From Bacteroidota bacterium (GTDB lineage: Bacteria; Bacteroidota; Ignavibacteria; UBA10030): DNA of 64,000 nucleotides. The stretch is taken from the NCBI GenBank assembly GCA_041695045.1, contig JBGFRR010000151.1:7245-71244 (forward strand), given 5' to 3'. Made by a program: the position numbers and the translations under genes. Of this stretch, positions 14,347 to 35,088 are shown piece after piece; the first letter of the stretch is position 1, and each line of letters begins with the position of its first letter. The notes below the pieces were generated by a model that worked only from the letters and a program-made list of their open reading frames with translations, was not told the DNA's origin and searched no databases.

Positions 14347-14414
14347 GTACGCGGTGGCTTCGGCTCAGCCTGCCGACCACTTGTGGCGCCAGCCCTTTGG
14401 GAAAAGAAAGACGG

Positions 14415-17148: not shown

Positions 17149-17174
17149 AACTGATCTAACATCACGAGGAAGAT

Positions 17175-19049: not shown

Positions 19050-19079
19050 AGCACACGATCATGTGAGAATGGAGAAGAT

Positions 19080-20471: not shown

Positions 20472-20718
20472 ACAGAGCGGAAGCGAGAAGCAGTGCCGCA
20501 TCAACGGATGCGACAAACCCCTTGCGACGGCGGGACTCTGCTGGATGCACTACATGCGCGCTCGACGGAACGGAGACGCACACACGACGCACCGTGTCTA
20601 CCGCAAGCACCACGAATGCCGCTATTGCGGTACGAGGGTGCAATCAGCGTTCTACGCGAACTACAAAGGGATTTGCAAAATTTGTTGGAAGCTTAAGAGG
20701 ATAGGAAAGTTGAGGTGA
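20458..20718 (+). CDS. small double zinc-ribbon protein (hypothetical)
   Basis: CRINGCDKPLATAGLCWMHYMRARRNG followed by ECRYCG...CKICW. There is no ATG; TTG 20458 lies 9 nt after GGAGGAGG (20441-20448), and TTG 20449 is an alternative. The ORF overlaps the cysG 3' end. Confidence 0.4.
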   Translation: MRHIKQSGSEKQCRINGCDKPLATAGLCWMHYMRARRNGDAHTTHRVYRKHHECRYCGTRVQSAFYANYKGICKICWKLKRIGKLR

Positions 20719-20861
20719 GGGAGCGACGCAGTGCTTGAATCGGACCTACTCTTTTGAAATCCGCTCACGTGGGCAAGCCACCCGCCAGAATGCGAAGCGG
20801 GCTGGCAACCAAAAATTGAAATGGTAAAAAAAAGGGCTGTAATCCCTCGGGTATTTATGAA

Positions 20862-21735: not shown

Positions 21736-22623
21736 CTACACCCCATCCTGAACAAAATTGGCGCCGTGTTTCATGCACCACTCGGCACGTGCTAACTCCT
21801 TGCCGAGGTAGGCCGCGTGATCAAGCTGCGATACCCAGCTGTTGCGGATCAAGGTGAGGTAGATGCTGCGGGCGTCGCGACCCTCGATGACATGCAACAG
21901 TTGTTCGTCGTAACCGTAGTGTTCGACCGCCAGCGCATCACCGATGACATGGATCACGAAGTAGCCGGCCTTGTCGAGCGTGATGCGCTTTGGGTCGGTG
22001 GCGGTGGCGATCACGTGTTCGGCCTCTATCTGACCGGCTGGGGCAGGCGCGCGCTTGAATTCGCCCGCCCCGGCTTCGCTGTGCGGGCCGGGGGGCGCGG
22101 GCTGCACCTCGGCTGCCAACTCCTTCGCTCGGGCGTGGATAGCGGCGACGTCCGTGCAGCCGATCATGTCGATTGGTTGCACCTGGTCGCGAAAGGTCCG
22201 CACCTCGGTAGCAGACGTGTTTGGCAGGATCGGGCGCACGCCGGGGGCTTCCGGTATCCTGTGGTTCTCATCGATGCCGTTGGCGAATAGCGCTAACATC
22301 GTCGCGCCGCTCAGATGCCTGGGCGGCTCGCTGCCCGCGCAAATCAGATAACGGATGGCAGGATTCGACACTGTGTTCTTGACGATCTTCTCGATGCCGA
22401 TGTTCTCGGTCTCAAGCTTGCCGACAATGCACAGCCCCTCCGGCGGGTCGTGGCTGACGGCTTCGGCCAAGGCGACACTGCCCAGCGTCGTCACGGCCAC
22501 AGGGGCAGCCGGATCGGTAACGAAATAGGTACCGGGCACATAGGGCCAAGTCTTGCGCTTCGCCTTGGTGCTCGCAAAGGTGCGGCTCAGGAAAAATCCA
22601 AAATCTTCCATCCTGGTTGGCAT
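21736..22623 (-). CDS. MtrA-like corrinoid-binding domain fused to DUF4346
   Basis: KTWPYVPGTYFV...VAVTTLGS...ETENIGIEKIVKNTVSNPAIRYLICAGSEPPRHLSG...FRDQVQPIDMIG matches tetrahydromethanopterin S-methyltransferase subunit A. The C-terminal LDKAGYFVI...HAAYLGKELARAE matches DUF4346. Local GC is very high. Confidence 0.75.
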   Translation of the reverse strand: MPTRMEDFGFFLSRTFASTKAKRKTWPYVPGTYFVTDPAAPVAVTTLGSVALAEAVSHDPPEGLCIVGKLETENIGIEKIVKNTVSNPAIRYLICAGSEPPRHLSGATMLALFANGIDENHRIPEAPGVRPILPNTSATEVRTFRDQVQPIDMIGCTDVAAIHARAKELAAEVQPAPPGPHSEAGAGEFKRAPAPAGQIEAEHVIATATDPKRITLDKAGYFVIHVIGDALAVEHYGYDEQLLHVIEGRDARSIYLTLIRNSWVSQLDHAAYLGKELARAEWCMKHGANFVQDGV

Positions 22624-22715
22624 CAATCATCCTTGTGTTTTGTCGTGAGATCGGATGTGGGAACGAGCATCCCGTCCCGAAGAGCGTTCGGGACGGGACT
22701 CCCTCCCTTTCTCGT

Positions 22716-23377
22716 TCATGGCTTCACTGCCACCAGCGCGACCGCGCCTAAATGGTCCGCATAGCGCTCGAAGATGGCGCGCATTTGAAGTACACGTTTG
22801 CGCGCCGCGGGCGTGCGTTCACGCGGACGACGCGCGCCAACTCGCGCTGCACCTCCTGTTTCAGATCCTCGGCTAGGTTGTCCGGCTTCAGGCAGAGTTC
22901 ATGGATGCCGTAGCGCCCGCCCGCTTTCAACAAGCGCGCCGCCTCCTGCACAATCAGGAGTTTTTGCGCATCCGCCTGCATGGTCAGCATGGCCTCGCCA
23001 TAGACTACCGACGCGCACTCCGGATCCAGCCCGCTGTGCCGGGCGTCTGCCACAATGATGCGCCGTAAAGGGCCATCTAAAACGCGGCGCGTCTCGGCCG
23101 CAGCCGTTTCATCGCGCTCGACGCCCGTGTAACTGCGAGGCCGGTGCTGTAGCACCACCCCGGCCGTGAACCCCAGACCCGGCGCGAATTCAACTACGTC
23201 ATCTTCAGCGGTGATGTTCAACGCCGCCACTAACTTTTCAGTCAGTTCGCGTCCGCCGGGGCGCAGCACCCGCCGGCCCATGCGCGCTAACAGCCAATGG
23301 CCAGGCGCCCTCTCGAGATCAGGGACGATGTGCGCCAGCGAGGCGTGTTCTTCAGGTTGTTCATTCATTATGTTCAA
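22716..23377 (-). pseudogene. class I SAM-dependent methyltransferase with apparent internal deletion/frameshift near the 3' end
   Basis: Motif I (VVEFAPGLGF) and LKAGGRYGIHEL are present. After RVNARP the annotated frame runs into unrelated sequence (stop at 22748). A second frame, ending at 22716, encodes RKRVLQMRAIFERYADHLGAVALVAVKP. Confidence 0.55.
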
Positions 23378-25080
23378 TGCCTCTCAGGATGTCGGTGATG
23401 AATTGGTTTTGGTACGGAAATGATTCCTGCAGGCAGCGGTTGATTGTTGAAGTGCGCTATCGCAATTCGAATCTGCTCGTCCACCCACCGCTCGAACATT
23501 GGGTGCGGAGCAAAACCTTTGCCGTTGTAAACATAGCTCAGTCCTTCGAGCCAGTCCTCCTCTCGTCCGCCGCGAGTTGTTCTGGCAGGGATGACGATTG
23601 CTGTGCCGCCATCTTCCGATGCTCGTTGAACCATTGCTCGGATGTTGTGAATGGCTTTCTCTCGAAGCTCCGGCCAATCCTCGCGCCAGGTAGCAAACTG
23701 AATATCGCGAAAGTGTCGCGCTTTCAGGTGTGCCACTGTCTGCATGTGCGAAGCGATGATGGCGAGGTTGTTTTCCCAGTGCTTGTTTGCCTCTTCATCA
23801 TCTGTGCCGTGGGCGAGGAGAATGATCGTCTCCTTCTTCGGCTCTTTGCTGACTTCGAGTGCACGGTCGAGCAGCGCTTCTGCAAACAACGGGCTTGCTT
23901 CAACGCCACCAAGGGTAAAGAGTGCACAAGAGGTACGGATTCTCTGCGGCGGCTTCCCGTGGTTGCCGTGTCCGTGGCCGGCGTGGCCTAAGCGCTCTTG
24001 TAAACCCAGGACATACTCGGTGACCTCTCTGAAGCTCGATTCGAGCGAAAACACGCGCACGACAACAATGGCTCGGGCGCCGCGTTGCTCCAATTTTCTC
24101 ACTGCCCTCTCCATGAGAAAGGGATCGCCCATTCCAAAGGCCGGTTCGATTATGTATCGCAACTGATGTGAGCCAATGGCATCCATCATTCTCCGATTCC
24201 AGTTATAGTTGGCGCCGTGCGGCATGAACACGACCCCAAGGTTCTCTGGCGTAATAGGCAAATGCGCGTTTGAGCGTTGAGCAAGCCAGAGTGCTACATT
24301 GGGATGCGGCGTAAGATCCTGTCCATCAAACACTCCACCGTACTTTTGAATCAGCGACTTGAGACGTGCGCCAAGGGACATCATACCGTCTGCTTTCCAG
24401 CCAAAGTCAAAAGGAACAACAATGGGCTGAAGCTTTTTCGCTTGTGCAGAGGCAAGAGCGTCTTCGAGAGATTTCCAAGGGGAGGCGCCACGCTGTCTGT
24501 CCTTGAGCGCGACCTCCATATATCCGGCAAAGGGATAGCGATCCTCGATGTACGCACGATAACGCTTCATATCTTCGGAAATCAAAGCTGCTTCTTGATC
24601 GTCTCGTGCTCCCTGCGCAACGAGAATCAACATTTCTTTGGACGGATTTTTGCTCAGTCCCTCTAACCGGTCGGATAAGATTTCCGAGATCAGGTAGGTT
24701 CCTGTGTGCTTTTGGGAAATCGTTATCGACAGGTCGGTGAGAGAAGAGGTCTTGTTCGAGAGAGTCGTTTCAATGTGTTTCCACATTGGATGATGGAGCG
24801 AGAGAAAGAGAGGTAGGACAACCACCCTCTTTGCTCCTGCCGCGTGCACTTGCGAAAGACCTTCTTTAAGAAAGCGCTCCGTTTCTTCGCGGGTTGCGAA
24901 GACAAGAGCGGCATTGAACTGCTTTCGGTACTCTTCGAATGCGTCGCGCAGCTCTTCATTTCCCATAAAACCCCGGTCGGGCGCGACGATGAGGAAACCG
25001 GTTTCGTACGCCTTGTCCGCTGCTACCGTCAGGGCAAATGCGAGCAGTTGGCAGGCAAGAATTTTTCTAAACAATCCCAT
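23374..25080 (-). CDS. secreted protein built from four tandem CbiX/CbiK-like (class II chelatase) half-domains
   Basis: Signal peptide MGLFRKILACQLLAFALTVAA. The four repeats begin FLIVAPDRG, LILVAQGARD, VVFMPHGAN and IILLAHGTDD, and each is followed by a ..VVV(L)P.. strand. Its stop overlaps the methyltransferase start (ATGA). Confidence 0.65.
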   Translation of the reverse strand: MGLFRKILACQLLAFALTVAADKAYETGFLIVAPDRGFMGNEELRDAFEEYRKQFNAALVFATREETERFLKEGLSQVHAAGAKRVVVLPLFLSLHHPMWKHIETTLSNKTSSLTDLSITISQKHTGTYLISEILSDRLEGLSKNPSKEMLILVAQGARDDQEAALISEDMKRYRAYIEDRYPFAGYMEVALKDRQRGASPWKSLEDALASAQAKKLQPIVVPFDFGWKADGMMSLGARLKSLIQKYGGVFDGQDLTPHPNVALWLAQRSNAHLPITPENLGVVFMPHGANYNWNRRMMDAIGSHQLRYIIEPAFGMGDPFLMERAVRKLEQRGARAIVVVRVFSLESSFREVTEYVLGLQERLGHAGHGHGNHGKPPQRIRTSCALFTLGGVEASPLFAEALLDRALEVSKEPKKETIILLAHGTDDEEANKHWENNLAIIASHMQTVAHLKARHFRDIQFATWREDWPELREKAIHNIRAMVQRASEDGGTAIVIPARTTRGGREEDWLEGLSYVYNGKGFAPHPMFERWVDEQIRIAIAHFNNQPLPAGIISVPKPIHHRHPERH

Positions 25081-25096
25081 AGCGCTTCTCCTTCGG

Positions 25097-25681
25097 TCAG
25101 TTCCGTTGTATGTGGCTTCTCACATGCTCAATAACAAGCGATGAAATTAATCCTATGTCGTACGGCCATGCGTAGATGACGACGGTACCGATATCAGGAT
25201 GCTGCTCCTTGAAGCTCTGAATCGAACGGGGGATATCCTTTTCTGAGTGGCTGCCGCCGGGCGTGATCATAATGCTCGTGACGATGATTGTATCAGGTCG
25301 TTCCTTCATCAGCTCGGCTAATGCGCTTTCCACGGTGGGCGCACACATCTCATTGAACGCGAACTGAACGGAACGAAACACTCCTGCCCGTTCAATTTCC
25401 CTCGCTATCTTGACGATGCCTGCCCAGTACTTATCATTCTGTTCATTCCGCGGCCAGTGTGCCATATCCTCTTTGATCTTCCGAGCCTCATCGATATTCT
25501 CGCGACGGAGCTTGAAATATTCGCTCAGCCTTGGAAAATCCGTCGCCACGCTACCATGCCCCACGAGCAGCAAGGACGTGGTCTTTGTACTCTTTGAAGT
25601 TGATACTTGACCCAACGCGCTTGAACACAAAACAAGCGTCATGAGAAACAACGTTACTGCAACGTGTTTGAACGATTTCAT
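25097..25681 (-). CDS. secreted single-domain CbiX-like sirohydrochlorin/cobalt chelatase homologue
   Basis: Start at MKSFKHVAVTLFLMTLVLCSSALGQ (signal peptide). It contains LLLVGHGS and ITPGGSHSEKDIP, both canonical His motifs. Confidence 0.7.
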   Translation of the reverse strand: MKSFKHVAVTLFLMTLVLCSSALGQVSTSKSTKTTSLLLVGHGSVATDFPRLSEYFKLRRENIDEARKIKEDMAHWPRNEQNDKYWAGIVKIAREIERAGVFRSVQFAFNEMCAPTVESALAELMKERPDTIIVTSIMITPGGSHSEKDIPRSIQSFKEQHPDIGTVVIYAWPYDIGLISSLVIEHVRSHIQRN

Positions 25682-25751
25682 TTCAGAGTCCTTTCTCATC
25701 GATGTCGTTGATAGGATAGACGGAATTTCAGCAGTACGAGAATTCTTGTCT

Positions 25752-26270
25752 TCACTGAAGCCTATGAGATCCATCCGGCTGATAAAAATACCGGAACGTG
25801 TAATACCGCGGCGGTACCGTCGGTATGCTGGTTGTTGCATCGTACGGAATCGGATTCGGCGCTCCCTTGTAATAACTCAGAATCTCGAGCTTCGCATACT
25901 TGCCGTCTGCTGTACGGAGAACGATGACGGTTCCTGGATTCGGAATGACCGCGTGCTTCGGCGGCGTGGGTGAAGCACCGGTGTACGTGAACCATCCGCT
26001 GATCGCCCTTCTTGTCAAGCTGTCTGTTACATACCCTGAAACCGGCGCAGTTGAAAGTGCATTGAAGTCTGTTCCCGTCATCACTATTGCCGCTGCACGT
26101 CCGGGTCCGCTCACTCCGCCGTTGATGATGATGGTGGTGGCACGAAACCCAAGATCCCATTTTGTTGTAGCCAAATCGGCATTCGATACAACCGAGCTAT
26201 CGCGTAAGCTGAAGAAGGTGAATCGACCACTCCTGGCAGTATCTGCGGGCAAATCTTTCACCAACGTCAC
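25752..26270 (-). CDS. HmuY-like heme-binding protein (N-terminus in another frame, see findings)
   Basis: RFTFFSLRDSSVV...KWDLGFRATTIIINGGVSGPG...YAKLEILSY resembles the HmuY family. The gene sits directly downstream of a TonB-dependent receptor, as in hmuYR loci. Confidence 0.55.
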   Translation of the reverse strand: MTLVKDLPADTARSGRFTFFSLRDSSVVSNADLATTKWDLGFRATTIIINGGVSGPGRAAAIVMTGTDFNALSTAPVSGYVTDSLTRRAISGWFTYTGASPTPPKHAVIPNPGTVIVLRTADGKYAKLEILSYYKGAPNPIPYDATTSIPTVPPRYYTFRYFYQPDGSHRLQ

Positions 26271-26398
26271 GCGACCTTGCGGTTCGACAGGGTCAGGCTC
26301 GACGATACTTTTTACAGCCAGAGACGATGATCAGTGTTGAGCAGATTGTGAGAATATATAGTCGAATTATAGGAGCCTCCTGAAAAAGTTGTGAATGA

Positions 26399-28738
26399 TT
26401 ATTCCGATGAACTGGAAACATTGATGCGTGCTATCGCATAGAATATTCGTCCCGGGACGGAAGAGAGCCGTTGCGGATCTTTCTTATTGAGAAGATTATC
26501 AACTCCAATCTGAAGCGAGATGAAATTCGTTATCTCTTGTATAACCGAAGCATTCCATAATGCATAACCGGGTGCATACTCAGTGTCGTCATCGAGTACG
26601 CCGTTAAGGTTGCGGTCTGCAAAGCCGTACCTGCCGCGAAGAACGCCCCGAAGGGAGATCGCGGTACCGGTTGCCGGATGCTCGTAGGCAAGCCTCACAA
26701 CGCCGGAATGAGCGGATCGATGAAACAGTCCACCATACTCCGCTTCCTGCACGGGGCGGATTCGGCCGGCGCTTCCCACTTTGAAAATCTCCCCAGCACG
26801 AATGCATTCGAGCGCTTCTTCATCCTTCGCTTCGAGGTACTGATAGCCAAGTGTGAAAGAAAAGCCTTTGATTCCTCGAACGGTCAATTCCGCCTCGATG
26901 CCCTGAGTGAAAATCTTGTTCAGATTAAAGTACGTGTAAACACTCTGACCGTTGGTCTTGAGAGCGACCGGATTGGCTTCGATGAGATCCCGAACGTTGT
27001 TTCTGAAAATGTTGAACGAAGCGAAACCGTCGAAGGGAAGAGTTATCTCTAACCCCGCGTTGTAGGAAATCGAATTTTCGGGGCGAATTGTTTCAAGACT
27101 CTGGGGATCGATCAAGATGGCTCGAATCTGTCCTTGTTCTTGTAGTCTGGCAATCAGTTCCTTGACACCAACTGATCCGAACACAGAATATCCGACACCC
27201 GGATTTGTGAAATCGAGGTACAATTGCTGAAAGGTCGGCGCTTTGAATCCGCTCCCCACTGATGCGCGAACGTGCAGCCACGTGAGCGGCTTCATCAATG
27301 CGGTAGCTTTCGGACTGAGCCGCGCTGCGTAATCACGATGAGCATCGTAGCGAGCGCTTACAATGAAATTGAACGCTGGTGTTGGAATCCATTCGACTTG
27401 AGCATAGGCGATTTTGCTGTCAGCCGCGCGTTTGCCTCCTTGAATTCTATCTGCTTCAAGGTGTTCGGCGATTGCGCCCGCACCGAGCGATACAAGCCAC
27501 CAGTTGGCGATGGGGATATCGGTTTGCGTTTCGGCCTTGTAGTAAGCTTGATCAAAGAGACTTCTGCTGTACACTCCTCCAGCGTGATAATCCAACTCAT
27601 TCTGTGTTTTATAGCTCGTTGCGAAGAGTTTGAGTGTTGTCTTGATGCCGCTCAGAAAACGATGTGAAATGCTGGGAGCGACGTTCCAATCGGTCAGCGT
27701 CGCCCGATTGTTGAGCAGGACTTGTTGATTGTTTTGGAAAACCGACACTTGGCTTTTCTGTTCGCTGTGGTACCATCGAGCGCTCACGGACGCCACGGTC
27801 TGTCCGCCGATGTTGAAATTCATCTTTGGACTCATCGTGTAATCGGTGTACGGTGCAACGGTTGGGCTTATTGTTGCAGGAGTGAGGTCATAACCGGCCG
27901 AGGATTTTCTGTTCACAAAGATCGAGCCGCTGAACCAATTGCCCGCGTGTTCGATTGTTCCGCTCAAGTCGTACGTGTCATAGCGCGCGGCTCTTCCTTC
28001 CAGAGAGCCAGACCACGGCTTACGAGGAACGGCAGTGATGATGTTGATGACGCCGGCGAGCGCTTCACTCCCATACAACGAAGAGATGGGGCCTTTGACA
28101 ATTTCAATGTGCTCCACATTTCCGACACTCACGCGGGAAAGCTCTAATGTTCCAGCTCTTCTGCCAATGAGAGGTTCGCCGTCGATCAGGATGAGCGTGT
28201 AGGCAGGGTCTAATCCTTGCACTTGAACTCCTGTGCCGTGGTCTTGAATCAAGGCCAAGCCTGGTTGTTCAGCAAAAATGGCTCGCAAGTCAGAGCCGCC
28301 GCAGAACCTGATTTCACGTTGCGGAATGACCGACGTTCGAATCGGTACATCTGCCAAATTCTTTTCTGTACGAGTTGCTGTGATGACAACAGGAGAGAAT
28401 TTGATCGTTTCCTCCGACAACACAATTTCGAATGTGTGGACCTCGCCTGCCTTCACTTCTATTTCTTTTGTTATCGTGCGGTAGCCGACGGAGCTAATTA
28501 CCACGGTGTGTTTTCCGGGTGGGACGTTGGTGAGGCGGAACCATCCGGTGTCTGATGTTGCTGTTCCGATTGTTGTTCCTTGAATGACGACGTTCGCTGC
28601 GACGAGCGGCGTTCCTCGTTCAGTCGTAACAGTACCGATAATCGTTCCAGAAAGCGATTGGGAGAGAACAACCGATTGTGTATAGAACACGAGAAGAGAG
28701 AGTGCCAACATACGAAACCCGCAGGCTGCGTTTATCAT
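26399..28738 (-). CDS. TonB-dependent receptor with N-terminal carboxypeptidase-regulatory-like domain (HmuR/BtuB-like)
   Basis: 779 aa. GTIIGTVTT..G.PL..ANVVIQGTTIGT.TSDTGWFRL matches CarbopepD_reg. A plug region (VVITATRTEKNLADVPIRTSVI) and a beta-barrel follow. Confidence 0.85.
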   Translation of the reverse strand: MINAACGFRMLALSLLVFYTQSVVLSQSLSGTIIGTVTTERGTPLVAANVVIQGTTIGTATSDTGWFRLTNVPPGKHTVVISSVGYRTITKEIEVKAGEVHTFEIVLSEETIKFSPVVITATRTEKNLADVPIRTSVIPQREIRFCGGSDLRAIFAEQPGLALIQDHGTGVQVQGLDPAYTLILIDGEPLIGRRAGTLELSRVSVGNVEHIEIVKGPISSLYGSEALAGVINIITAVPRKPWSGSLEGRAARYDTYDLSGTIEHAGNWFSGSIFVNRKSSAGYDLTPATISPTVAPYTDYTMSPKMNFNIGGQTVASVSARWYHSEQKSQVSVFQNNQQVLLNNRATLTDWNVAPSISHRFLSGIKTTLKLFATSYKTQNELDYHAGGVYSRSLFDQAYYKAETQTDIPIANWWLVSLGAGAIAEHLEADRIQGGKRAADSKIAYAQVEWIPTPAFNFIVSARYDAHRDYAARLSPKATALMKPLTWLHVRASVGSGFKAPTFQQLYLDFTNPGVGYSVFGSVGVKELIARLQEQGQIRAILIDPQSLETIRPENSISYNAGLEITLPFDGFASFNIFRNNVRDLIEANPVALKTNGQSVYTYFNLNKIFTQGIEAELTVRGIKGFSFTLGYQYLEAKDEEALECIRAGEIFKVGSAGRIRPVQEAEYGGLFHRSAHSGVVRLAYEHPATGTAISLRGVLRGRYGFADRNLNGVLDDDTEYAPGYALWNASVIQEITNFISLQIGVDNLLNKKDPQRLSSVPGRIFYAIARINVSSSSE

Positions 28739-28770: not shown

Positions 28771-28799
28771 AAAAGCAAAAAGGGCTGGGCTACCTGCCC
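28771..28799 (-). terminator. putative terminator of the phn-like transporter operon
   Basis: The minus strand reads GGGCAGGTAGCCCAGCCC followed by TTTTTGCTTTT. A second 12-bp hairpin lies just upstream on that strand (28817-28855). Confidence 0.4.
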
Positions 28800-28904
28800 G
28801 GTTCTTTTCTGCACCCGGTGTGTCACCCCCTCGCCAAAGGTTTGGGTGACGCACCTTTTTTATTCTTCCCGAACTGCGGTTACAGACTCAGGTCGCGTTC
28901 CAAA

Positions 28905-29699
28905 TCACACAATTTTTTTTCTCAGGTACAAACTCGCACCATCGATGATGATGACGGTGGGAAGCGTTATGAGAATGACCGTCGCGGCCATATCGTACTG
29001 GAACGACCGCATATAATGGAGGAGATAGAACCCAATCCCCCCCGCACCGACGATGCCCAATACCGTTGCCGCGCGCACATTGTACTCAAAAATGTAAAGC
29101 GCATAGCCTAAGAAGTGCGGTGCCACCTGCGGCAACACCCCGTAGCGCCACACGCTCACCCGCGACGCCCCCGTTGACCGCACGGCTTCGACCTGCGATG
29201 TGTCGACTGCTTCAATGGCTTCATAGAATAATTTGCTGACAAAGCCGACGGTGTACATTGCCGTCGCGAGAATGCCGGGAAACGGCCCAAGCCCAACGGC
29301 AGCAACGAACAACAGCGCCCAGACAATAATCGGGATGGTGCGGATGACCGTGAGAAGCGAGCGGAAGGGAATGGTGAGCCACACGGGACTCACGTTGCGC
29401 GCTGCAAGGAAGCTCGGAAGGAACGCAAGGATGAGACCGATGAGCGAGCCGAGGAAAGCGATCTGAACGGTCTCAACGAGCGACTTCCACGCCGGGCCCG
29501 CCGCAGCAGTGTTGGGAGGAAACATTCCCGCCAGGAATTCCGCCATGTTCGACACGCCCATCAACAGTGCGGAAATGCTGAAGCCTGTTCCGCTTGCTGC
29601 CCAGATAAAAAGTACTACTAACACAGCGAGCACCAACAGCTTACGCACGGGGGTAATGGTCCACAATGTCGCCACCTCCGAAGATAGTTTCCAGCGCAT
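28905..29699 (-). CDS. phnE: phosphonate/phosphite-type ABC transporter permease
   Basis: VEAVRSTGASRVSVWRYGVLPQVAPHFLGYALYIFEYNVRAATVLGIVGAGGIGF is the PhnE signature. ATG 29699 was chosen; the ORF stays open to 29756. Confidence 0.8.
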   Translation of the reverse strand: MRWKLSSEVATLWTITPVRKLLVLAVLVVLFIWAASGTGFSISALLMGVSNMAEFLAGMFPPNTAAAGPAWKSLVETVQIAFLGSLIGLILAFLPSFLAARNVSPVWLTIPFRSLLTVIRTIPIIVWALLFVAAVGLGPFPGILATAMYTVGFVSKLFYEAIEAVDTSQVEAVRSTGASRVSVWRYGVLPQVAPHFLGYALYIFEYNVRAATVLGIVGAGGIGFYLLHYMRSFQYDMAATVILITLPTVIIIDGASLYLRKKIV

Positions 29700-30471
29700 G
29701 GTCGTTGAGAGTCGAGGTTGGTCCGTCGAACACAATGCGTCCATGACGAATGCCAATCACACGCGTACAGTATTGACGTACATGGTCAAGGTCGTGGAGC
29801 GAAATGAGCAGTGTGAACTGCAGCTCCTTTTGTAACGTAGCGAGCAGATCAAGAATGCTGTACGACGTACGGTTATCGAGGCTCGCGACCGGTTCGTCCG
29901 CGAGCAGCAGCTCATGCTCTTGCATCAACGCACGGGCAATGGCCACGCGCTGCTTCTGGCCGCTGCTCAACTGCGCCACGCGACGATGCTCAAGACCGCG
30001 CAATCCGACGGCGTCGATGTACCGCAGGGCGCGCTGCCGATCCTCGTTGGGAAAGATGCCAAACAATCCTCTCCATCCTCCCACGCGGCCGAGACTGCCG
30101 ATCAACACGTTTGTTAACACGGGTAGCCGTTGAGCAAGCGAAAACTCTTGAAATACCATCGACACATGCGGATGCGTTGTGTCCCCCAACGATACGGCGC
30201 CGTTCAACCCACGCAGATTGATGGTACGCGTTCCTCGCGCAACAGGTAAGAGACCGTTGATGGTTTTGAGCAGCGTGGATTTGCCGGAGCCGCTCGGACT
30301 GATGAGGGCAACGCGCTCACCGCGATGAAGTTTGAGCGAGACATCGCGAAGCGCATCGGGGTGATTGGGGTAATCCACATACACCCCGTCCAACACAATC
30401 ATTGGAGGTGGGACCGCTTGTTCCAGCGGAATAATCCGCCCCATCGGTTCCATCTTGCCCGATCCACTCAT
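29641..30471 (-). CDS. phnC: phosphonate-type ABC transporter ATP-binding protein
   Basis: Walker A (SPSGSGKST), ABC signature (LSSGQKQRVAIARAL) and Walker B (LLLADEP) are present. ATGA overlap with phnD. Confidence 0.85.
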   Translation of the reverse strand: MSGSGKMEPMGRIIPLEQAVPPPMIVLDGVYVDYPNHPDALRDVSLKLHRGERVALISPSGSGKSTLLKTINGLLPVARGTRTINLRGLNGAVSLGDTTHPHVSMVFQEFSLAQRLPVLTNVLIGSLGRVGGWRGLFGIFPNEDRQRALRYIDAVGLRGLEHRRVAQLSSGQKQRVAIARALMQEHELLLADEPVASLDNRTSYSILDLLATLQKELQFTLLISLHDLDHVRQYCTRVIGIRHGRIVFDGPTSTLNDHALETIFGGGDIVDHYPRA

Positions 30472-31403
30472 GGTCGCTGCGCCGCCTTGTATTGATAACC
30501 GGTGAGCTGCTCAGCCCGGTAGACATGGGATACGTGTTCTTCGTGCGTTACTGGCGCGAAGGCGTCAGCACCGTACAGCTTTTTGAGGAGCGCCTTATCC
30601 TGTTCGCTCGAATAACTCAACAGTGCGGCCTTCAACGTTTCGACAAACTCGCGCGATAGCGAGGGATGAACGACAACGCTGTGTGTGGGGATGGGACCTT
30701 GGCGAGCGACGATCTTCACGCGTGCTCGCTGCGCAGGGGTCAGGTACAATTCATACGCACCTTCCGAGGCGGCGCCCGCATCGACATGGCCCCGCGCGAT
30801 GGCTTGCAGCGTAGCCTCGTATCCACCCGAATACAAAATCTCGCCGAAGAATGACTTCGGGTCAGCCTGTCCATCCTTTAATGAGCCTTCTTCCACGAGC
30901 TTTGCAACGGGGAACAGATAGCCGGAGGAGGAGAGGGGGCTGGAGAATGCGACTTTCTTGCCGCGCAAGTCGGCTAACGTGTTGATATTCGCGTCTGCGC
31001 GAACGTACCAACAACTGTAATAGTATGTTTTGCCGTTACGGACTTCGGCGAGAATGAACCGTGCGCCGGCAACGCGGTTGGCCATCACGCCCGGCCAGCT
31101 CGGGACGAACGCAACCTGCGCGTGGTTAAAGCGCAGCGCTTCGACCGCAGCGGCGAAGTCGTTCGGCACGTAGACCTTTACCGGAATGCCAAGACGCCGC
31201 GAAAGGTCGGCGGCCATCTTTTCCGCATCGGGCAAAAAGGTGCTGATGTCGTTTTGCGGGAGAAAGGCAATCGTCAGCTCCTTCGGTGTTTGACCGAACG
31301 ACCCCGTCGTCGTGAACGCCATCAGCACGAGAACGGCAACGGCCTTGAAGAGCACCGATGATAAGAAATGAACTCGTTGAGATGAAAACGTCTGGTGGAA
31401 CAT
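30468..31403 (-). CDS. phnD: PhnD-family periplasmic substrate-binding protein
   Basis: ATG 31403 lies 7 nt after GGAGGAG. A signal peptide is followed by LTIAFLPQNDIS...AQVAFVPSW...GYLFP...G.VDAGA. Confidence 0.8.
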   Translation of the reverse strand: MFHQTFSSQRVHFLSSVLFKAVAVLVLMAFTTTGSFGQTPKELTIAFLPQNDISTFLPDAEKMAADLSRRLGIPVKVYVPNDFAAAVEALRFNHAQVAFVPSWPGVMANRVAGARFILAEVRNGKTYYYSCWYVRADANINTLADLRGKKVAFSSPLSSSGYLFPVAKLVEEGSLKDGQADPKSFFGEILYSGGYEATLQAIARGHVDAGAASEGAYELYLTPAQRARVKIVARQGPIPTHSVVVHPSLSREFVETLKAALLSYSSEQDKALLKKLYGADAFAPVTHEEHVSHVYRAEQLTGYQYKAAQRP

Positions 31404-31516: not shown

Positions 31517-31852
31517 TCACGCGCGGATCATCGTCAAAAGCATCTTCGACGGCACGCGTGCATACAATGCATGAGGCACATTGGCAGGCAGCAGGATGAG
31601 TTGGCCTGCTGCCACCACGTGTTTATCTGTTGCAATGCTGATATCCAGCTCGCCCTCGAGCACCTGCACCAGCGCGTCGTAGGGCGCGGTATGTTCGCTC
31701 AAACTCTCCCCAGTGTCGAAGGCGAACAACGTTACCGTGCCGACGGGTTTGTTCAGCAGCGTACGGCTGACCACCGCGCCCGGCTGAACAACAATCAGCT
31801 CTGCCAACTTATGCGGCCTGCTTGTCAGGTCCGGTGATGTATTACGTTCCAT
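31517..31852 (-). CDS. cupin domain protein
   Basis: GESLSEHTAPYDALVQVLEGELDI....AGQLILLPANVPHAL matches the two cupin motifs. Confidence 0.7.
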   Translation of the reverse strand: MERNTSPDLTSRPHKLAELIVVQPGAVVSRTLLNKPVGTVTLFAFDTGESLSEHTAPYDALVQVLEGELDISIATDKHVVAAGQLILLPANVPHALYARVPSKMLLTMIRA

Positions 31853-32357
31853 GACCACGTTGTGGGGACTCCATTGCGGCTGTGAGGCGGCCACCCCTCA
31901 CCGTGGCGCCGATCACGAGGCCCGCGCTGACGAGCACCAGGTTCTTAATAATGTACTGCCCTTCCAGCGTCGGCGCGAAGGGAATGGACGTGAAGCATGC
32001 CTCTGGGAACAGCACCAGCGGCGTCACCGTGCCGAGCATCTGCAGCCACAGCAGGAAGAGCGTGGCGCGGAGCCAGACGCCGGAGAGCAGGCCGATCCCT
32101 ATCAGCGACTCCCAGGTGGCGAGGATGGGCACCGCTGCCTGAGGGGAGAGCACGCCGAACGAAAGCACGACAATAGTGTTGCCCGCCAGGTGCTCGGCAG
32201 GGCTGAGGCCGGGGAAGAACTTGAGTATCCCGAACCAGAGGAAGATCGCCCCAAGACTCAGACGCAGGAGATAGACGCCATTGGCGGACATCCATCTGGT
32301 GAGATGAGCGTCGAGTCGATCAAACGATTGCCAAACGACATTGCGGGCATCCGTCAT
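31842..32357 (-). CDS. DoxX/DUF417-like membrane protein
   Basis: 171 aa with 4 TM segments. LRLSLGAIFLWFGILKFFP is typical of the family. Confidence 0.6.
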   Translation of the reverse strand: MTDARNVVWQSFDRLDAHLTRWMSANGVYLLRLSLGAIFLWFGILKFFPGLSPAEHLAGNTIVVLSFGVLSPQAAVPILATWESLIGIGLLSGVWLRATLFLLWLQMLGTVTPLVLFPEACFTSIPFAPTLEGQYIIKNLVLVSAGLVIGATVRGGRLTAAMESPQRGHGT

Positions 32358-32525: not shown

Positions 32526-34910
32526 TCAAAACGCGTATTTGGCCCCCACGTGCATCAGCCTCGGGCTGCCCACTTGAATGCCGCGAGTACGATCCACAAT
32601 GTAGGTTTTATCAGCAAGATTTTTCACGGTGATGAAAAACGTTGTCTGCGCGAGCTCGAGGTGATAATTGAGCGCCACGTTCCAAATCGTATAGGCCTGA
32701 AGCTTGCCGCGCTGACCATCGGTCGTGGGCGTTATGGTGTTGGCGAAGTCCGCGAACTGCTCGGAGACGTGCACGCCTTCCAACTGAGCGTCGAATCCGC
32801 CCACGCGATAGCCTGCAGCGGCAGTGAGCAGATGTTTCGGAGTGTAGGGATGACGATTTCCGGCTGCGCTGCCAGCGATCACCGCCCCGCCCACTACTTG
32901 GTGAAAGGGGGTAATCTGCTCGGCATCAGGCAACCAGGTGTAGGCGCCGTTGAAGAAAAGTCCGCTTTCGAGGCTGTAGTGGCCGGACAGTTCCACGCCT
33001 TGGAACAGTGCCTCGCCCTGCGCGAGCGGAGTGGTACCTGCGGCGATTGAACCCACGGCGATCAGGCGTTTGAAATCGTTGCGGAAAAGAGTAACCTGAA
33101 CCAAGCTTCCTTCGGTAGGTTGCATGCGTGCGCCAAGCTCCCAGTTGGTTGATTCCTCTGCATCGACGTCAGTAGCCGTACCAACGAGAGCGATGATGTC
33201 TTCGGTGCGAGGCGGGGCGAAACCGCGATGTACGCCGGCAAAGACCGTAAGGGTCGTGGCAGGGTTCCATGTCGCGCCCAAACTGGGAACCCATTTGCCT
33301 AATTTGTCCGAACCAGCGAGGCCACCTGGAAGCTGGTTGGTGCGCGACGAAACGATGTGCTCATAGCGGAGACCAGGAGTGACGGACCAGTCGCCGAGGA
33401 GGAAGCGATGAACCAGGAAGGCGGAATAGGCTTTGGTTTCGCGCAGATTATCCTCCACCACTGCGCCGGTTCGCGCCGTCGGAGCTACACCATTTATTTG
33501 TTTACGATCCTGGTTTTCAAAATGCGCCTTGACGCCGACTTGGAGCTTACCACTTACCCCAAAAGCCGAATGCAAAAACTTCAGCCGTGGTTCGATGCCC
33601 CAGGTGGTGTACTTGCGCAGCCTGCCCTGGTTCGAGTTGAGAGTGTCCGGGTTAACCTGCCTACCTGCAAGACGGGCATCACGAAACCTAGTGCCGGCCG
33701 CTCCGCCTTGAGCATCGGTGGTCGTGCTCGATTGACGCCACCAGTCGCGGTCGAAATGGGAGTAGTAGAGGTTGGTGGTCAGCAAGGCGTTCTCGCTCAA
33801 CTGCAGATTATGAGTGGCGGAAGTACCATAGCGCTTGATGTCGAAGCGGTCGTTCTTGAATGGATTATAGCGCGGACCGAAGTTGCGGAACTCAGCCTCC
33901 GTGAGCCCGCTATAGGTTACAATAGATTTTTCGGTGAATACATTGGCACGCAACGTAAGTGCTTGGCTTCCGCCCATTCCTACTACCGCCTTGAAGTTCA
34001 AATCGTTCAGCTGCGAATGAGTATTGTCGCGTGCGCCGTCCCCCTGTTTGCGGGTATAGTCCAGCATCATGCGATGACTACCCAGCCGGACCTTGCCGTG
34101 GAAATGGTCGCGCGTGCCGATGGTGACGGAGGCAAAACCGCCGAGCGCATCCGGCGGCGCCGGCGTGATATAGTTGATGATGCCGCCGATCGTTTGCGGC
34201 CCAAACAGGATCTGTCCCGCGCCTTTCAGTAATTCGATGCGCTCGAAGCGGTCGATGGGTGGGTGGAAGTAGCTTGCATTGTCGCCATAAGGCGCGTAGG
34301 CGAGCGGAACGCCGTCTTCGAGCAGCGTAACTTTCGTAGTACGGGTGGGATTGAGGCCGCGAATACTGATATTGGGTCTCAATCCGAAACCCTCTTCATC
34401 GCGCACATTCACCCCCGGAAGCTTGCGTATCGCTTCGTTGACGGTAAACGGGCGGCTGGTTTCTAGCGTGCGCCGACTCAGCACGTTGGCGCTGCCGGGA
34501 ATATTCATGATTACCGCAGGGTGTAAACCCACGATTTCAACGAGGGGCAAATCGACCGGACGCGCTGTGAGCACAACGTCGAGCGATGCGACTTCACCAT
34601 CGCGCACTGTCACGGTGTAGCTTGCTTCAGCATAACCGAGCATGGTGATCTGAACGGTGTAGGTCCCGACAGGAAGATTGGGGATCACAAACCCTCCGGC
34701 CTCATTCGTTGATGTCCCGAAGCGCGTCCCGACAACAACGATGTTGGCGCCGACGAGTGGCTGGTTGGTTTCCTTCGCGAGAACTTGACCGCGCAAGCCC
34801 CCCGTAAGGATTGATTCGGATGGCTGGCTCACCACAGTGGCCACAAAGAGGGCAAGCAATGCCATGCAGGAGAAGAAGCGGGAAATGTGGTTCATCATAA
34901 CATACCTCAA
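32526..34910 (-). CDS. TonB-dependent (siderophore-type) receptor with CarbopepD_reg domain
   Basis: 794 aa with a signal peptide. The plug region reads VEIVG...NVLSRRTLE, and the barrel ends in ...VGAKYAF. Confidence 0.85.
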   Translation of the reverse strand: MRYVMMNHISRFFSCMALLALFVATVVSQPSESILTGGLRGQVLAKETNQPLVGANIVVVGTRFGTSTNEAGGFVIPNLPVGTYTVQITMLGYAEASYTVTVRDGEVASLDVVLTARPVDLPLVEIVGLHPAVIMNIPGSANVLSRRTLETSRPFTVNEAIRKLPGVNVRDEEGFGLRPNISIRGLNPTRTTKVTLLEDGVPLAYAPYGDNASYFHPPIDRFERIELLKGAGQILFGPQTIGGIINYITPAPPDALGGFASVTIGTRDHFHGKVRLGSHRMMLDYTRKQGDGARDNTHSQLNDLNFKAVVGMGGSQALTLRANVFTEKSIVTYSGLTEAEFRNFGPRYNPFKNDRFDIKRYGTSATHNLQLSENALLTTNLYYSHFDRDWWRQSSTTTDAQGGAAGTRFRDARLAGRQVNPDTLNSNQGRLRKYTTWGIEPRLKFLHSAFGVSGKLQVGVKAHFENQDRKQINGVAPTARTGAVVEDNLRETKAYSAFLVHRFLLGDWSVTPGLRYEHIVSSRTNQLPGGLAGSDKLGKWVPSLGATWNPATTLTVFAGVHRGFAPPRTEDIIALVGTATDVDAEESTNWELGARMQPTEGSLVQVTLFRNDFKRLIAVGSIAAGTTPLAQGEALFQGVELSGHYSLESGLFFNGAYTWLPDAEQITPFHQVVGGAVIAGSAAGNRHPYTPKHLLTAAAGYRVGGFDAQLEGVHVSEQFADFANTITPTTDGQRGKLQAYTIWNVALNYHLELAQTTFFITVKNLADKTYIVDRTRGIQVGSPRLMHVGAKYAF

Positions 34911-35039: not shown

Positions 35040-35088
35040 ACTAATCCGACTAACTTAGTCCAAGTTCAAAACCGGACTAAGTTAGTCC
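35040..35088. promoter_or_regulatory. paired palindromic operator-like sites GACTAA-N-TTAGTC (x2) plus an extra GACTAA half-site
   Basis: gactaacttagtc (35049-35061) and gactaagttagtc (35076-35088) have centres 27 bp apart. A third half-site lies at 35040-35045. All sit in the divergent region between the TonB receptor and the SDR gene. Confidence 0.45.

What the first reader, a model, noticed from the sequence alone, without database searches (positions are those of the whole stretch)
21736..28738. Unusual tetrapyrrole (heme/corrinoid) acquisition locus
Six co-directional, tightly packed minus-strand genes combine:
- a TonB-dependent receptor;
- an HmuY-like hemophore-type protein;
- two CbiX-like chelatases that both carry signal peptides;
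- a SAM methyltransferase;
- an MtrA-like corrinoid-binding protein fused to DUF4346.

Exported chelatase homologues next to heme receptors have precedent. Porphyromonas gingivalis IhtB is CbiK-like, and Desulfovibrio has a periplasmic, heme-binding CbiK.

I have not seen this combination described: a four-repeat exported chelatase, a canonical single-domain chelatase and an MtrA-like cobamide protein together. It could be a periplasmic metal-extraction (dechelation) or corrinoid-remodelling pathway feeding a cytoplasmic corrinoid protein. The adjacent PhnDCE-type ABC transporter (28905-31403) may or may not belong to it.
Basis: inference. Interest (0 to 1): 0.7.

Follow-up and report, generated by a model that had tools for sequence, protein, structure and literature searches.

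The report
Exported chelatase-like proteins beside haem receptor
The six genes are real, but only four form a conserved unit: an outer-membrane receptor, a haem-catcher-like lipoprotein and two exported chelatase look-alikes that recur beside iron-uptake genes in several phyla, while the methyltransferase is broken and the B12-type protein is probably an unrelated neighbour.

Summary
All six minus-strand genes exist with the predicted domains. The locus is composite.

**Conserved core.** This is TonB-dependent receptor, then HmuY-like lipoprotein, then exported class II chelatase homologue(s).
- The 568-aa protein is a tandem duplication of a two-subdomain chelatase fold.
- Its family has 311 cluster representatives at E<=1e-30 and almost always carries a Sec-type N-terminus.
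- It lies directly after a TonB receptor in 7 of 9 independent neighbourhoods, six of them with HmuY between. FeoB, FTR1, PepSY_TM, hemP or ferritin-like genes are often nearby.
- The small CbiX keeps both catalytic histidines. In Melioribacter it occupies the same slot after receptor and HmuY.

**No corrinoid signal.** There is no cobalamin riboswitch and no B12 gene.

**The other two genes.**
- The methyltransferase carries a 160-nt frameshifting deletion.
- MtrA-DUF4346 keeps its cobalt-ligand histidine, but it is GC3-rich and has unrelated neighbours in other lineages.
- The HmuY gene has a homopolymer frameshift.

**Reading.** The best one is an iron-island haem or porphyrin capture module with periplasmic metal exchange. 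The direction of exchange is unproven. The nearest tested relative, P. gingivalis FetB, inserts metals and did not strip haem. This is a new variant of a known kind. The corrinoid-remodelling idea is unsupported.

The parts
35047..35088 (-). Tandem palindromic operator-like sites (CGACTAACTTAGTCC and GGACTAAGTTAGTCC, 27 nt apart). They lie just downstream of a TTGACA box and upstream of TBDR2. This is the probable start of the co-directional island.
   Evidence: The pattern occurs only here in 64 kb, 2 sites against 0.07 expected. The same tandem pair lies upstream of the receptor-HmuY-CbiX568 module in L014 and upstream of feoA in L016. The L016 promoter is orthologous to the window's. Function is inferred.
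32526..34910 (-). TBDR2, a second TonB-dependent receptor at the head of the island.
   Evidence: Pfam finds CarboxypepD_reg, Plug and barrel. It is 68.5% identical to a Pseudomonadota receptor encoded next to FTR1/hemP and a CbiX568 homologue.
31842..32357 (-). DoxX-family membrane protein.
   Evidence: Pfam DoxX. A DoxX gene lies between the haem receptor and the HmuY-like gene in the iron-regulated hfp operon of F. psychrophilum (PMC9331221). In L006 its homologue sits directly upstream of MtrA-DUF4346. GC3 is 0.77.
31517..31894 (-). Small cupin protein.
   Evidence: Pfam Cupin_2. Role unknown.
28905..31403 (-). PhnD/PhnC/PhnE-type ABC transporter. Membership of the system is uncertain.
   Evidence: PhnE TIGR01097 scores 288 bits (cut-off 217), PhnC 251 (cut-off 266), and the PhnD subfamily TIGR01098 166 (cut-off 112). 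The closest solved binding proteins are PtxB, PhnD and ArrX. Adjacency upstream of TBDR1 is kept in L001 and L013 only.
28775..28864 (-). A 90-nt intergenic element between phnE and TBDR1. It forms two hairpins, the second followed by a U-run on the gene strand.
   Evidence: It is nearly identical in the window, L001 and L013, while the flanking DNA and proteins diverge. A variant follows feoB in L013 and L016. No Rfam family matches.
26399..28738 (-). TBDR1, the TonB-dependent outer-membrane receptor of the core module.
   Evidence: Pfam. All NCBIfam substrate-specific models score below their cut-offs, with haem, CirA and BtuB about equal. The best solved relatives are CirA at 2e-34 and BtuB at 1e-15. 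It is syntenic with HmuY and CbiX568 in six lineages.
25752..26421 (-). HmuY-like lipoprotein gene, interrupted by a frameshift in an A5 run near 26310.
   Evidence: Pfam HmuY 9.4e-14. The lipoprotein signal is in another frame. The intact L001 orthologue reads ...IIVAGCKKSILEPDPVEPQGRV. The best solved relative is 8B6A at 8e-14, which is B. fragilis HmuY-Bf-2 and prefers PPIX (PMC12106395).
25097..25681 (-). CbiXs, an exported small class II chelatase homologue of CfbA/CbiXS type.
   Evidence: Pfam CbiX 2.3e-12. H42 and H145 are invariant and align to the two catalytic His of CfbA. AF2 pLDDT is 88.7 and Foldseek matches CfbA with TM 0.77. The family is narrow, with 21 hits in Ignavibacteria. 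In Melioribacter the order is receptor-HmuY-CbiXs-receptor.
23374..25080 (-). CbiX568, an exported tandem class II chelatase-like protein (2 x 2 subdomains) with a His-rich loop and tail.
   Evidence: AF2 and Foldseek. Internal duplication. Invariant residues are D35-R36-G37-F38, H288-G289, H424-G425, W465-R-E-D-W469, R500 and H526. Family size is, Sec-type N-termini, and synteny.
22722..23377 (-). Class I SAM methyltransferase remnant, distantly DVU_1556-like. Probably a pseudogene.
   Evidence: Pfam Methyltransf_11. NF045667 scores 55 bits against a cut-off of 155. It has a 160-nt deletion between 11-nt repeats relative to L001, and the C-terminal 32 aa are in another frame. GC3 is 0.73.
21736..22626 (-). 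Cytoplasmic MtrA-like cobamide-binding domain fused to DUF4346. Probably not part of the uptake module.
   Evidence: Pfam MtrA 2.3e-39 and DUF4346 3.1e-21. It aligns to solved MtrA at 3e-28 with the His of GSExxxH kept. More than 2700 homologues exist, and those at 65-71% identity have unrelated neighbours. GC3 is 0.77.

Best explanation
The locus is a mosaic.

**Working unit.** This is TBDR1 + HmuY-like surface lipoprotein + two Sec-exported class II chelatase homologues (CbiXs and the tandem CbiX568). It is embedded in a 13-kb co-directional metal-uptake island that starts at a promoter with a tandem operator upstream of TBDR2.

**Proposed mechanism.**
1. The lipoprotein captures a porphyrin-type ligand, most likely haem.
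2. The receptor brings it into the periplasm.
3. The chelatase-like proteins bind it there and exchange its metal. The most likely direction is release of iron.
4. The iron then enters through generic permeases (FeoB or FTR1 type). Relatives encode these beside the module, but this window does not.

**What is shown and what is inferred.**
- Shown: folds, conserved chelatase histidines, export signals, conserved gene order and iron-gene neighbourhoods.
- Inferred: the ligand, the direction of metal transfer and iron-responsive regulation.

**The other two genes.** The methyltransferase (inactivated here) and MtrA-DUF4346 form a separate, compositionally foreign pair. They have landed at the end of the island and are not needed for this model.
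For: **Fold and catalytic residues**
- CbiX568 consists of two class II chelatase units.
- CbiXs is CfbA-like, with both catalytic His invariant.

**Export**
- 152 of 165 full-length CbiX568 relatives have an N-terminal hydrophobic segment, and one has a Tat-like motif. Any ligand is therefore acquired outside the cytoplasm.

**Gene order**
- Receptor-HmuY-CbiX568 occurs in the window, L001 (83% identity), L013 (63%), L014 (59%), Gracilimonas L003 (48%) and L018 (40%).
- Receptor-CbiX568 occurs in a Pseudomonadota MAG (L004), together with TonB/ExbBD, FTR1 and hemP.
- In Ca. Manganitrophus the homologue is near a receptor, PepSY_TM and a ferritin-like gene.
- CbiXs is found as receptor-HmuY-CbiXs in Melioribacter, and in a feoAB cluster in L016.

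**Other context**
- No inner-membrane haem transporter is conserved with the module, which fits periplasmic processing.
- The tandem operator upstream of TBDR2 recurs upstream of the L014 module and of feoA in L016.
- A receptor-DoxX-HmuY operon in F. psychrophilum is iron-regulated and needed for haem use (PMC9331221).
- There is no riboswitch and no B12 gene.
Against: **No biochemistry here**
- FetB/IhtB is the only exported homologue that has been tested. It inserted Co and Mn into porphyrin and showed no reverse activity with haemin (PMC13065792).

**The ligand is not pinned down**
- TBDR1 is not specifically haem-type. All NCBIfam models score below their cut-offs, and CirA is the best solved relative.
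- The HmuY-like protein is closest to a PPIX-preferring homologue, and the P. gingivalis axial His residues are not evidently kept (PMC12106395).

**Weak points in CbiX568 and the regulon**
- The first chelatase unit of CbiX568 lacks the beta1 His (DRG replaces HG), and the second unit lacks the second His.
- No Fur-box-like site was found.
- The operator evidence rests on three sites, one of which is orthologous to the window's.
- No FeoB or FTR1 gene lies in this window.

**This copy may not work**
- The hmuY frameshift may make this particular copy non-functional.

**The sample is small**
- Only nine CbiX568 neighbourhoods could be inspected.
Confidence: 0.45

Rival explanations
1. Forward periplasmic chelation or transmetallation. 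The receptor and HmuY import a metal-free or wrongly metallated porphyrin. The exported chelatases then insert a metal (Fe, Co, Mn or Ni), as FetB does, to salvage a cofactor or to make a metalloporphyrin.
For: - FetB has Co/Mn chelatase activity and no dechelatase activity (PMC13065792).
- The HmuY-like protein is closest to PPIX-preferring HmuY-Bf-2 (PMC12106395).
- CbiXs keeps both catalytic His residues.
- His-rich loop or tail segments, typical of metal-delivering chelatases (own knowledge), occur in CbiX568, in 44-47 of 165 relatives and in one CbiXs relative.
Against: - No conserved inner-membrane porphyrin importer would carry the product inward.
- The neighbours are iron importers (FeoB, FTR1), not cofactor users.
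- The His-rich segments are present in only about a quarter of the family.
Confidence: 0.2
2. The receptor, HmuY-like protein and exported CbiX proteins take up and remodel corrinoids, which then load the cytoplasmic MtrA-DUF4346 cobamide protein with help from the methyltransferase.
For: - MtrA-DUF4346 keeps the cobalt-ligand His.
- CbiX relatives are cobalto- or nickelochelatases.
- TBDR1 has BtuB-level similarity.
- MTase and MtrA sequences are embedded in the same island in the sister genome too, once as an MTase::MtrA fusion relic.
Against: - No cobalamin riboswitch was found at either threshold.
- No Btu or Cob genes occur in the window or in any related locus.
- MtrA-DUF4346 is not syntenic with receptors or CbiX outside this one lineage.
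- The MTase is a pseudogene.
- MTase and MtrA have foreign GC3.
- The MTases near CbiX568 in L018 and near MtrA in L010 are not orthologous to this one.
Confidence: 0.08
3. Not a tetrapyrrole system. The chelatase fold is used here as a periplasmic binding or chaperone protein for a metal ion or a metallophore or siderophore complex delivered by the receptor.
For: - TBDR1's best solved relative is the catecholate receptor CirA.
- His-rich segments are present.
- The class II chelatase fold also matches periplasmic sugar-binding proteins at lower scores.
- Neighbours include PepSY_TM and ferritin-like genes.
- L017 has an ABC transporter and a porin instead of a receptor.
Against: - An HmuY-family gene lies between receptor and CbiX568 in six lineages, and hemP occurs in a seventh.
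- CbiXs keeps the full tetrapyrrole-chelatase His pair and the DIP motif.
Confidence: 0.15
4. In this particular genome the locus is decaying and does nothing. The frameshifted hmuY and the deleted MTase are real lesions in a rearranging island.
For: - Two of the six genes are disrupted.
- The sister genome carries a CbiXs remnant fused to an MTase, and an MTase::MtrA fusion.
- Gene content of the island differs between close relatives.
Against: - TBDR1, CbiXs, CbiX568 and MtrA-DUF4346 are intact full-length ORFs.
- The homopolymer frameshift may be an assembly error.
- The intergenic element upstream of TBDR1 is under strong conservation.
Confidence: 0.15

Closest known systems
Porphyromonas gingivalis Iht system (IhtA receptor, IhtB/FetB CbiK-like protein, IhtCDE ABC transporter)
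   Same: A TonB-dependent receptor gene sits next to an exported class II chelatase homologue, with an ABC transporter alongside. FetB (9b86) is among the fold matches of CbiX568. A reverse-ferrochelatase role has long been proposed for it (PMC12094164).
   Different: - FetB is a single CbiK-type unit and a surface lipoprotein. Here there is a tandem double unit plus a small CbiXS-type protein, both with plain Sec signals.
- The ABC transporter here is PhnCDE-type, not an iron-compound type.
- An HmuY-like gene is present here.
- FetB has been shown to insert Co and Mn and not to strip haem (PMC13065792).
Desulfovibrio vulgaris periplasmic CbiK, CbiK(P) (PDB 2xvx/2xvz)
   Same: It is an exported class II chelatase homologue and is among the fold matches. 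It is reported to bind haem (own knowledge).
   Different: It is a single CbiK unit. I know of no receptor or HmuY context for it. Sequence identity to CbiX568 is 12-14%.
Hmu/Hfp haem uptake operons of Bacteroidota (HmuY-HmuR; F. psychrophilum hfpR-DoxX-hfpY)
   Same: They have a receptor plus an HmuY-family lipoprotein, a DoxX gene in the same island, and iron-regulated haem use (PMC9331221, PMC12094164).
   Different: There is no CobN-like HmuS and no HmuTUV here. Exported CbiX-type proteins take the downstream position instead.
CfbA / CbiXS small sirohydrochlorin chelatases
   Same: CbiXs has the same fold (TM 0.77) and both catalytic histidines.
   Different: CbiXs has a signal peptide and a conserved insertion of about 40 residues forming two helices after the first strand. 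It also sits in an uptake context rather than a biosynthetic one. NCBIfam gives 45 bits against a cut-off of 120.
MtrA, the cobamide subunit of archaeal tetrahydromethanopterin S-methyltransferase
   Same: The MtrA domain matches solved MtrA at 3e-28, and the His ligand is conserved.
   Different: It is bacterial, it has no C-terminal membrane anchor (a DUF4346 domain is there instead), and the window has no other mtr genes. The family is uncharacterised.

Membership tests
Class II (ATP-independent) tetrapyrrole chelatases (CbiX/SirB/CbiK/HemH) | Two Rossmann-like alpha/beta subdomains forming a cleft | tested here: met
   CbiX568 matches SirB with TM 0.75 to the target, and also CbiK, HemH and FetB. 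It is present twice in tandem. CbiXs is a half-unit like CfbA, with TM 0.77.
Class II (ATP-independent) tetrapyrrole chelatases (CbiX/SirB/CbiK/HemH) | Catalytic histidine pair | tested here: inconclusive
   - CbiXs meets it: H42 and H145 are invariant and align to the CfbA His pair.
- CbiX568 is unclear: HG motifs are kept in subdomains 3 and 4 (H288, H424). Subdomain 1 has DRG instead, and the second His position is not conserved in subdomain 3.
Class II (ATP-independent) tetrapyrrole chelatases (CbiX/SirB/CbiK/HemH) | Cytoplasmic biosynthetic enzyme acting on sirohydrochlorin or protoporphyrin | tested here: not met
   Both proteins have Sec-type N-termini and sit in uptake neighbourhoods, not biosynthetic ones. 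Activity is not testable here.
HmuY hemophore-like family | HmuY domain above the Pfam cut-off, lipoprotein signal, gene next to a TonB receptor | tested here: met
   Pfam gives 52 bits against a cut-off of 27. The gene is adjacent to TBDR1. A lipobox is present but out of frame in this assembly.
HmuY hemophore-like family | Haem-iron axial ligands (His/His or Met/Met) | tested here: inconclusive
   There is no His at the position aligned to the HmuY-Pg FSHGP loop. The closest solved relative is HmuY-Bf-2, which binds without iron coordination (PMC12106395).
P. gingivalis Iht system | Receptor + CbiK-like outer-membrane lipoprotein + iron-compound ABC transporter | tested here: not met
   The receptor is present. 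The chelatase homologues are CbiX-type with no lipobox. The ABC transporter is PhnCDE-type.
Hmu operon (hmuYRSTUV) | CobN-like HmuS and HmuTUV downstream of HmuY/HmuR | tested here: not met
   No CobN or Mg-chelatase domain was found in any ORF of the island that was scanned against Pfam.
Cobalamin uptake locus (BtuB-type) | Cobalamin riboswitch and a BtuB equivalog | tested here: not met
   There is no Rfam match at gathering or at E<=1. TonB-B12 scores 115 bits against a cut-off of 600.
MtrA (Mtr complex subunit) | MtrA cobamide-binding domain with His ligand | tested here: met
   Pfam 135 bits. Solved MtrA matches at 3e-28, with GSEPPRH aligned to GSEVQGH.
MtrA (Mtr complex subunit) | C-terminal membrane anchor and the partner genes mtrB-H | tested here: not met
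   The C-terminus is a DUF4346 domain. TIGR01111 scores 124 bits against a cut-off of 249. No mtr genes were found among the window ORFs scanned.
Phosphonate ABC transporter PhnCDE | Equivalog-level matches for all three subunits | tested here: inconclusive
   PhnE scores above its cut-off. PhnC scores 251 against 266, and PhnD equivalog 150 against 261. The PhnD subfamily model scores above its cut-off. The substrate is unknown.

The most novel reading that the evidence does not exclude
The ~560-aa tandem chelatase family, always exported and wired to TonB receptors and HmuY-like lipoproteins, is a true periplasmic haem dechelatase or transmetallase. It would let bacteria of at least five phyla harvest iron from haem, or re-metallate scavenged porphyrins, without an inner-membrane haem transporter or a haem oxygenase. 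The phyla are Bacteroidota/Ignavibacteria, Balneolales, Nitrospirota, Binatota and Pseudomonadota. It would be the long-sought 'reverse ferrochelatase' in a class II fold.
Probability: 0.25. Interest if true: 0.75.

Novelty: new variant of a known kind. Interest (0 to 1): 0.5.

Why it matters
**The open question.** How bacteria take iron out of haem without destroying the ring, especially without oxygen, is still unsettled. A reverse-ferrochelatase role was proposed for IhtB about 25 years ago. The only direct test so far found forward chelation instead (PMC13065792).

**What this work adds.** It defines a widespread, unstudied protein family with:
- a clear fold;
- a fixed cellular location;
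- a repeatable gene context.

Cultured carriers exist (Gracilimonas, Aliifodinibius salipaludis, Rhodohalobacter, and Melioribacter roseus for the small form). That makes the question testable outside oral pathogens.

**A caution.** The eye-catching corrinoid protein is probably a bystander. This is a warning against reading every co-directional neighbour as part of a pathway.

Tried and rejected
**Searches that failed or gave little**
- The genome-contig scan with the single 568-aa protein returned only the already-known sister MAG.
No large neighbourhood census was therefore possible. Synteny rests on 12 exact-protein look-ups and one plasmid hit.
- Literature searches for DUF4346, PterinBD, BtuH+HmuY, and CbiX with TonB receptor and iron limitation found nothing.

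**Regulatory signals looked for and not found**
- Cobalamin or other riboswitch: none at gathering or at E<=1.
- E. coli-type Fur box upstream of the receptor genes: nothing better than 13 of 19.
- The operator pattern hit in L013 lies inside the receptor's signal-peptide coding region, so I discarded it as chance.

**Orthology tests that came back negative**
- The methyltransferase after CbiX568 in L018, and the one beside MtrA in L010, could have been orthologues of the window's. They are not: no similarity in one case, and 24% generic class I similarity in the other.
- CbiXs could have been a free-standing copy of one CbiX568 subdomain. hhalign gives only 25-40% probability, so I rejected this.
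- A conserved small partner downstream of CbiX568 (69, 82, 139 or 184 aa): these ORFs show no mutual similarity and no family match.

Full report
**Observation**

The six minus-strand ORFs are present at the stated coordinates, and each domain call is confirmed above Pfam's cut-offs.
- 26399-28738: TonB-dependent receptor with a CarboxypepD_reg N-domain.
- 25752-26270: HmuY.
- 25097-25840: CbiX. The likely start is M54 at 25681, which exposes a signal peptide.
- 23374-25080: CbiX.
- 22748-23377: class I methyltransferase.
- 21736-22626: MtrA + PterinBD-DUF4346.

NCBIfam adds nothing decisive for the receptor. Haem, CirA and BtuB models all score about 115-132 bits, far below their cut-offs. 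The solved relatives are CirA and then BtuB.

**The two chelatase homologues**

*CbiX568*
- An AF2 model of the 568-aa protein (pLDDT 88.4, pTM 0.87) shows four alpha/beta subdomains.
- Foldseek matches it to SirB, DR2241, HemH, CbiK, periplasmic CbiK of D. vulgaris and P. gingivalis FetB.
- Profile-profile comparison shows the N-half and C-half are duplicates (probability 99.2%, E 1e-19). Subdomain 1 matches 3, and 2 matches 4.
- Family-invariant residues include D35-R36-G37-F38, H288-G289, H424-G425, W465-R-E-D-W469, R500 and H526.
- This member has a His-rich loop (GHAGHGHGNHG) and a His-rich tail.

*CbiXs*
- The small protein models as a CfbA/CbiXS-type half-chelatase (pLDDT 88.7; TM 0.77 to CfbA).
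- Both catalytic histidines are invariant across its family.
- It carries a conserved two-helix insertion.

*Export*
- Of 165 full-length CbiX568 relatives, 152 have an N-terminal hydrophobic stretch and one has a Tat-like motif.
- These are therefore Sec-exported proteins that must meet any ligand outside the cytoplasm.

**Distribution and neighbourhoods**

The CbiX568 family is large. A profile search finds 1280 50%-cluster representatives at E<=1e-3 and 311 at E<=1e-30. Named members come from Ignavibacteriae, Balneolaceae (Gracilimonas, Aliifodinibius, Rhodohalobacter), Nitrospiria, Binatia, Nitrosospira and other Pseudomonadota.

Nine independent neighbourhoods were read.
- Receptor-HmuY-CbiX568 occurs in the window, L001/L002/L012 (83% identity, a Bacteroidota MAG), L013 (63%), L014 (59%), L003 (Gracilimonas, 48%) and L018 (40%).
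- Receptor-CbiX568 occurs in L004 (Pseudomonadota). Upstream there are TonB, ExbB, ExbD, a second receptor, FTR1, hemP and DUF2325.
- In a Ca. Manganitrophus plasmid the homologue is near a receptor, PepSY_TM and a ferritin-like gene.
- In L017 it has an ABC transporter, a porin and DUF2325, with no receptor.

FeoB lies upstream in L001 and L013, and FTR1 follows CbiX568 in L001.

The CbiXs family is narrow, with 21 hits from Ignavibacteria including Melioribacter roseus MROS_1427. In Melioribacter the order is receptor-HmuY-CbiXs-receptor. In L016 the gene sits in a feoAB cluster.

No Btu or Cob gene occurs in any of these loci. There is no cobalamin riboswitch in the window at either threshold.

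**The methyltransferase and MtrA-DUF4346**

*MtrA-DUF4346*
- The MtrA domain aligns to solved MtrA at 3e-28, with the cobalt-ligand histidine kept (GSEPPRH against GSEVQGH). Cobamide binding is therefore plausible.
- The family has more than 2700 homologues. Those at 65-71% identity, which tblastn locates in L008 and L010, have unrelated neighbours. More distant copies sit on small Planococcus plasmids.

*Composition*
- GC3 is 0.77 for MtrA and 0.73 for the methyltransferase, against 0.54-0.59 for TBDR1, HmuY, CbiXs and CbiX568.

*The methyltransferase is damaged*
- Relative to the sister genome it has lost 160 nt between 11-nt direct repeats.
- This shifts the frame and removes the last strands of the fold. 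The C-terminal 32 residues survive in another frame at 22722-22817.

*The sister genome*
- It holds a CbiXs remnant fused to an intact methyltransferase.
- It holds a fusion of methyltransferase residues ~4-112 to MtrA residues 138-295. I read this as the relic of a window-like MTase-MtrA pair.
- It holds an intact MtrA-DUF4346 directly after a DoxX gene, 10 kb downstream.
- MTase-MtrA therefore looks like a two-gene module that is rearranging and decaying inside this lineage's island. It does not look like a conserved part of the uptake system.

*Other methyltransferases*
- Those near CbiX568 in L018 and near MtrA in L010 are not orthologous to the window's.

**The wider island and its control**

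All genes from 34910 down to 21736 are co-directional: TBDR2, DoxX, cupin, PhnD/C/E, TBDR1, HmuY, CbiXs, CbiX568, MTase and MtrA.

*Promoter and operator*
- Upstream of TBDR2 there is a TTGACA box followed by two copies of GGACTAAnTTAGTCC, 27 nt apart.
- The pattern is unique in the window, 2 sites against 0.07 expected.
- The same tandem arrangement precedes the module in L014 and feoA in L016.
- The L016 site is the orthologous promoter, because that locus shares the window's deoxyhypusine synthase and GH20 flank. The independent support is therefore L014.

*Conserved intergenic element*
- Between phnE and TBDR1 a 90-nt element (28775-28864) is almost identical in three genomes whose flanking proteins are 60-85% identical.
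- It folds into two hairpins. The second is terminator-like on the gene strand, and the first is terminator-like on the opposite strand.
- A variant with its apical 18-mer inverted follows feoB in L013 and L016.
- No Rfam family matches it.

*PhnD*
- The PhnD-like binding protein resembles the phosphite, phosphonate and arsenic oxyanion binders PtxB, PhnD and ArrX. Its role in the island is unresolved.

**Mechanism**

What is shown is an outer-membrane receptor, a hemophore-family lipoprotein and exported chelatase-fold proteins, kept together across phyla and placed among iron transporters.

What I infer:
1. A porphyrin-type ligand, most likely haem, is captured.
2. It is imported into the periplasm.
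3. It is handed to the chelatase-like proteins, which exchange its metal.
4. Iron release followed by uptake through FeoB or FTR1-type permeases best explains two facts. No inner-membrane haem transporter is conserved with the module, and ferrous or ferric permeases recur beside it.

The main weakness is experimental precedent.
- FetB/IhtB was long proposed as a reverse ferrochelatase (PMC12094164).
- It has now been shown to insert Co and Mn into porphyrin and not to strip haemin (PMC13065792).
- The HmuY-like protein here is closest to B. fragilis HmuY-Bf-2, which prefers metal-free porphyrin (PMC12106395).

Forward chelation or transmetallation is therefore a serious rival.

**Comparison and verdict**

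- The system works like the P. gingivalis Iht arrangement and the Hmu/Hfp haem operons (PMC9331221), but it is a member of neither. It lacks a CbiK-type lipoprotein, an iron-compound ABC transporter and HmuS/TUV.
- The tandem exported chelatase family appears to be undescribed in the literature I could search.
- I rate it a new variant of a known kind, with moderate interest.

Noticed in passing
window 28775-28864 (minus strand); L001 ~5835-5935; L013 ~6807-6903; variant at L013 1409-1533 and L016 6281-6339: A 90-nt intergenic element is nearly identical in three genomes whose neighbouring proteins are only 60-85% identical. It forms two hairpins joined by an AGAAAAGA-type linker. A variant with the apical 18-mer inverted sits downstream of feoB. 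It matches no Rfam family. It could be a bidirectional terminator, an attenuator or a protein-binding element.
   Followed up: partly
window 35047-35088; L014 4358-4397; L016 3825-3865: A tandem palindrome, GGACTAAnTTAGTCC, overlaps a sigma-70-like promoter upstream of iron-uptake operons. It is a candidate operator for an unknown metal regulator of this lineage. Rfam's weak 'mir-3' hit on both strands here is simply this hairpin.
   Followed up: partly
window 32526-34910 vs L004 2604-4628: TBDR2 is 68.5% identical to a receptor of a Pseudomonadota MAG, but only 45% identical to the receptor at the corresponding position in its own sister genome. This suggests cross-phylum transfer of an iron-uptake receptor. 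The proteobacterial copy also lies near a CbiX568 homologue.
   Followed up: no
window 21736-22626 and relatives P0122-P0240; Planococcus plasmids (L020): MtrA-DUF4346 is a large, very conserved and uncharacterised bacterial family. Members are 60-76% identical across phyla, the cobalt-ligand His is kept, and copies occur on small mobilizable Planococcus plasmids next to an ISL3 transposase. Its function is unknown and deserves its own study.
   Followed up: partly
window 26293-26421 / ~26310 and 22722-22817: There are two lesions in the locus. One is a homopolymer (A5) frameshift that separates the HmuY lipoprotein signal from its domain. The other is a 160-nt microhomology deletion in the methyltransferase. 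The first could be an assembly error.
   Followed up: yes
L001 8863-9921 and 16491-17315: The sister genome carries a CbiXs fragment fused in frame to an intact methyltransferase, and a methyltransferase N-terminus fused to the C-terminal part of MtrA-DUF4346. These are signs of repeated recombination among GC-rich MTase and MtrA copies inside the iron island.
   Followed up: partly
proteins P0376, P0390, P0397: Giant proteins of 1100-1650 aa have four CbiX stretches plus FmdE and cell-surface domains (SLH or Cu_amine_oxidN1 in P0390 and P0397, GLUG in P0376), apparently from Gram-positive bacteria. About 300-aa exported proteins match only the C-half of CbiX568. Extracytoplasmic chelatase-fold proteins seem much more widespread than the literature suggests.
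   Followed up: no
window 14397-21611 (plus strand): An assimilatory sulfate-reduction operon converges on the MtrA gene: sulfite reductase, PAPS reductase, a Sat-CysC fusion, siroheme synthase CysG and TauE. The cytoplasmic siroheme pathway is thus next door. It is on the other strand and compositionally ordinary.
   Followed up: no
window 47856-49743 (minus strand): Three tandem Uma2-family (putative restriction endonuclease) genes lie in a row.
   Followed up: no
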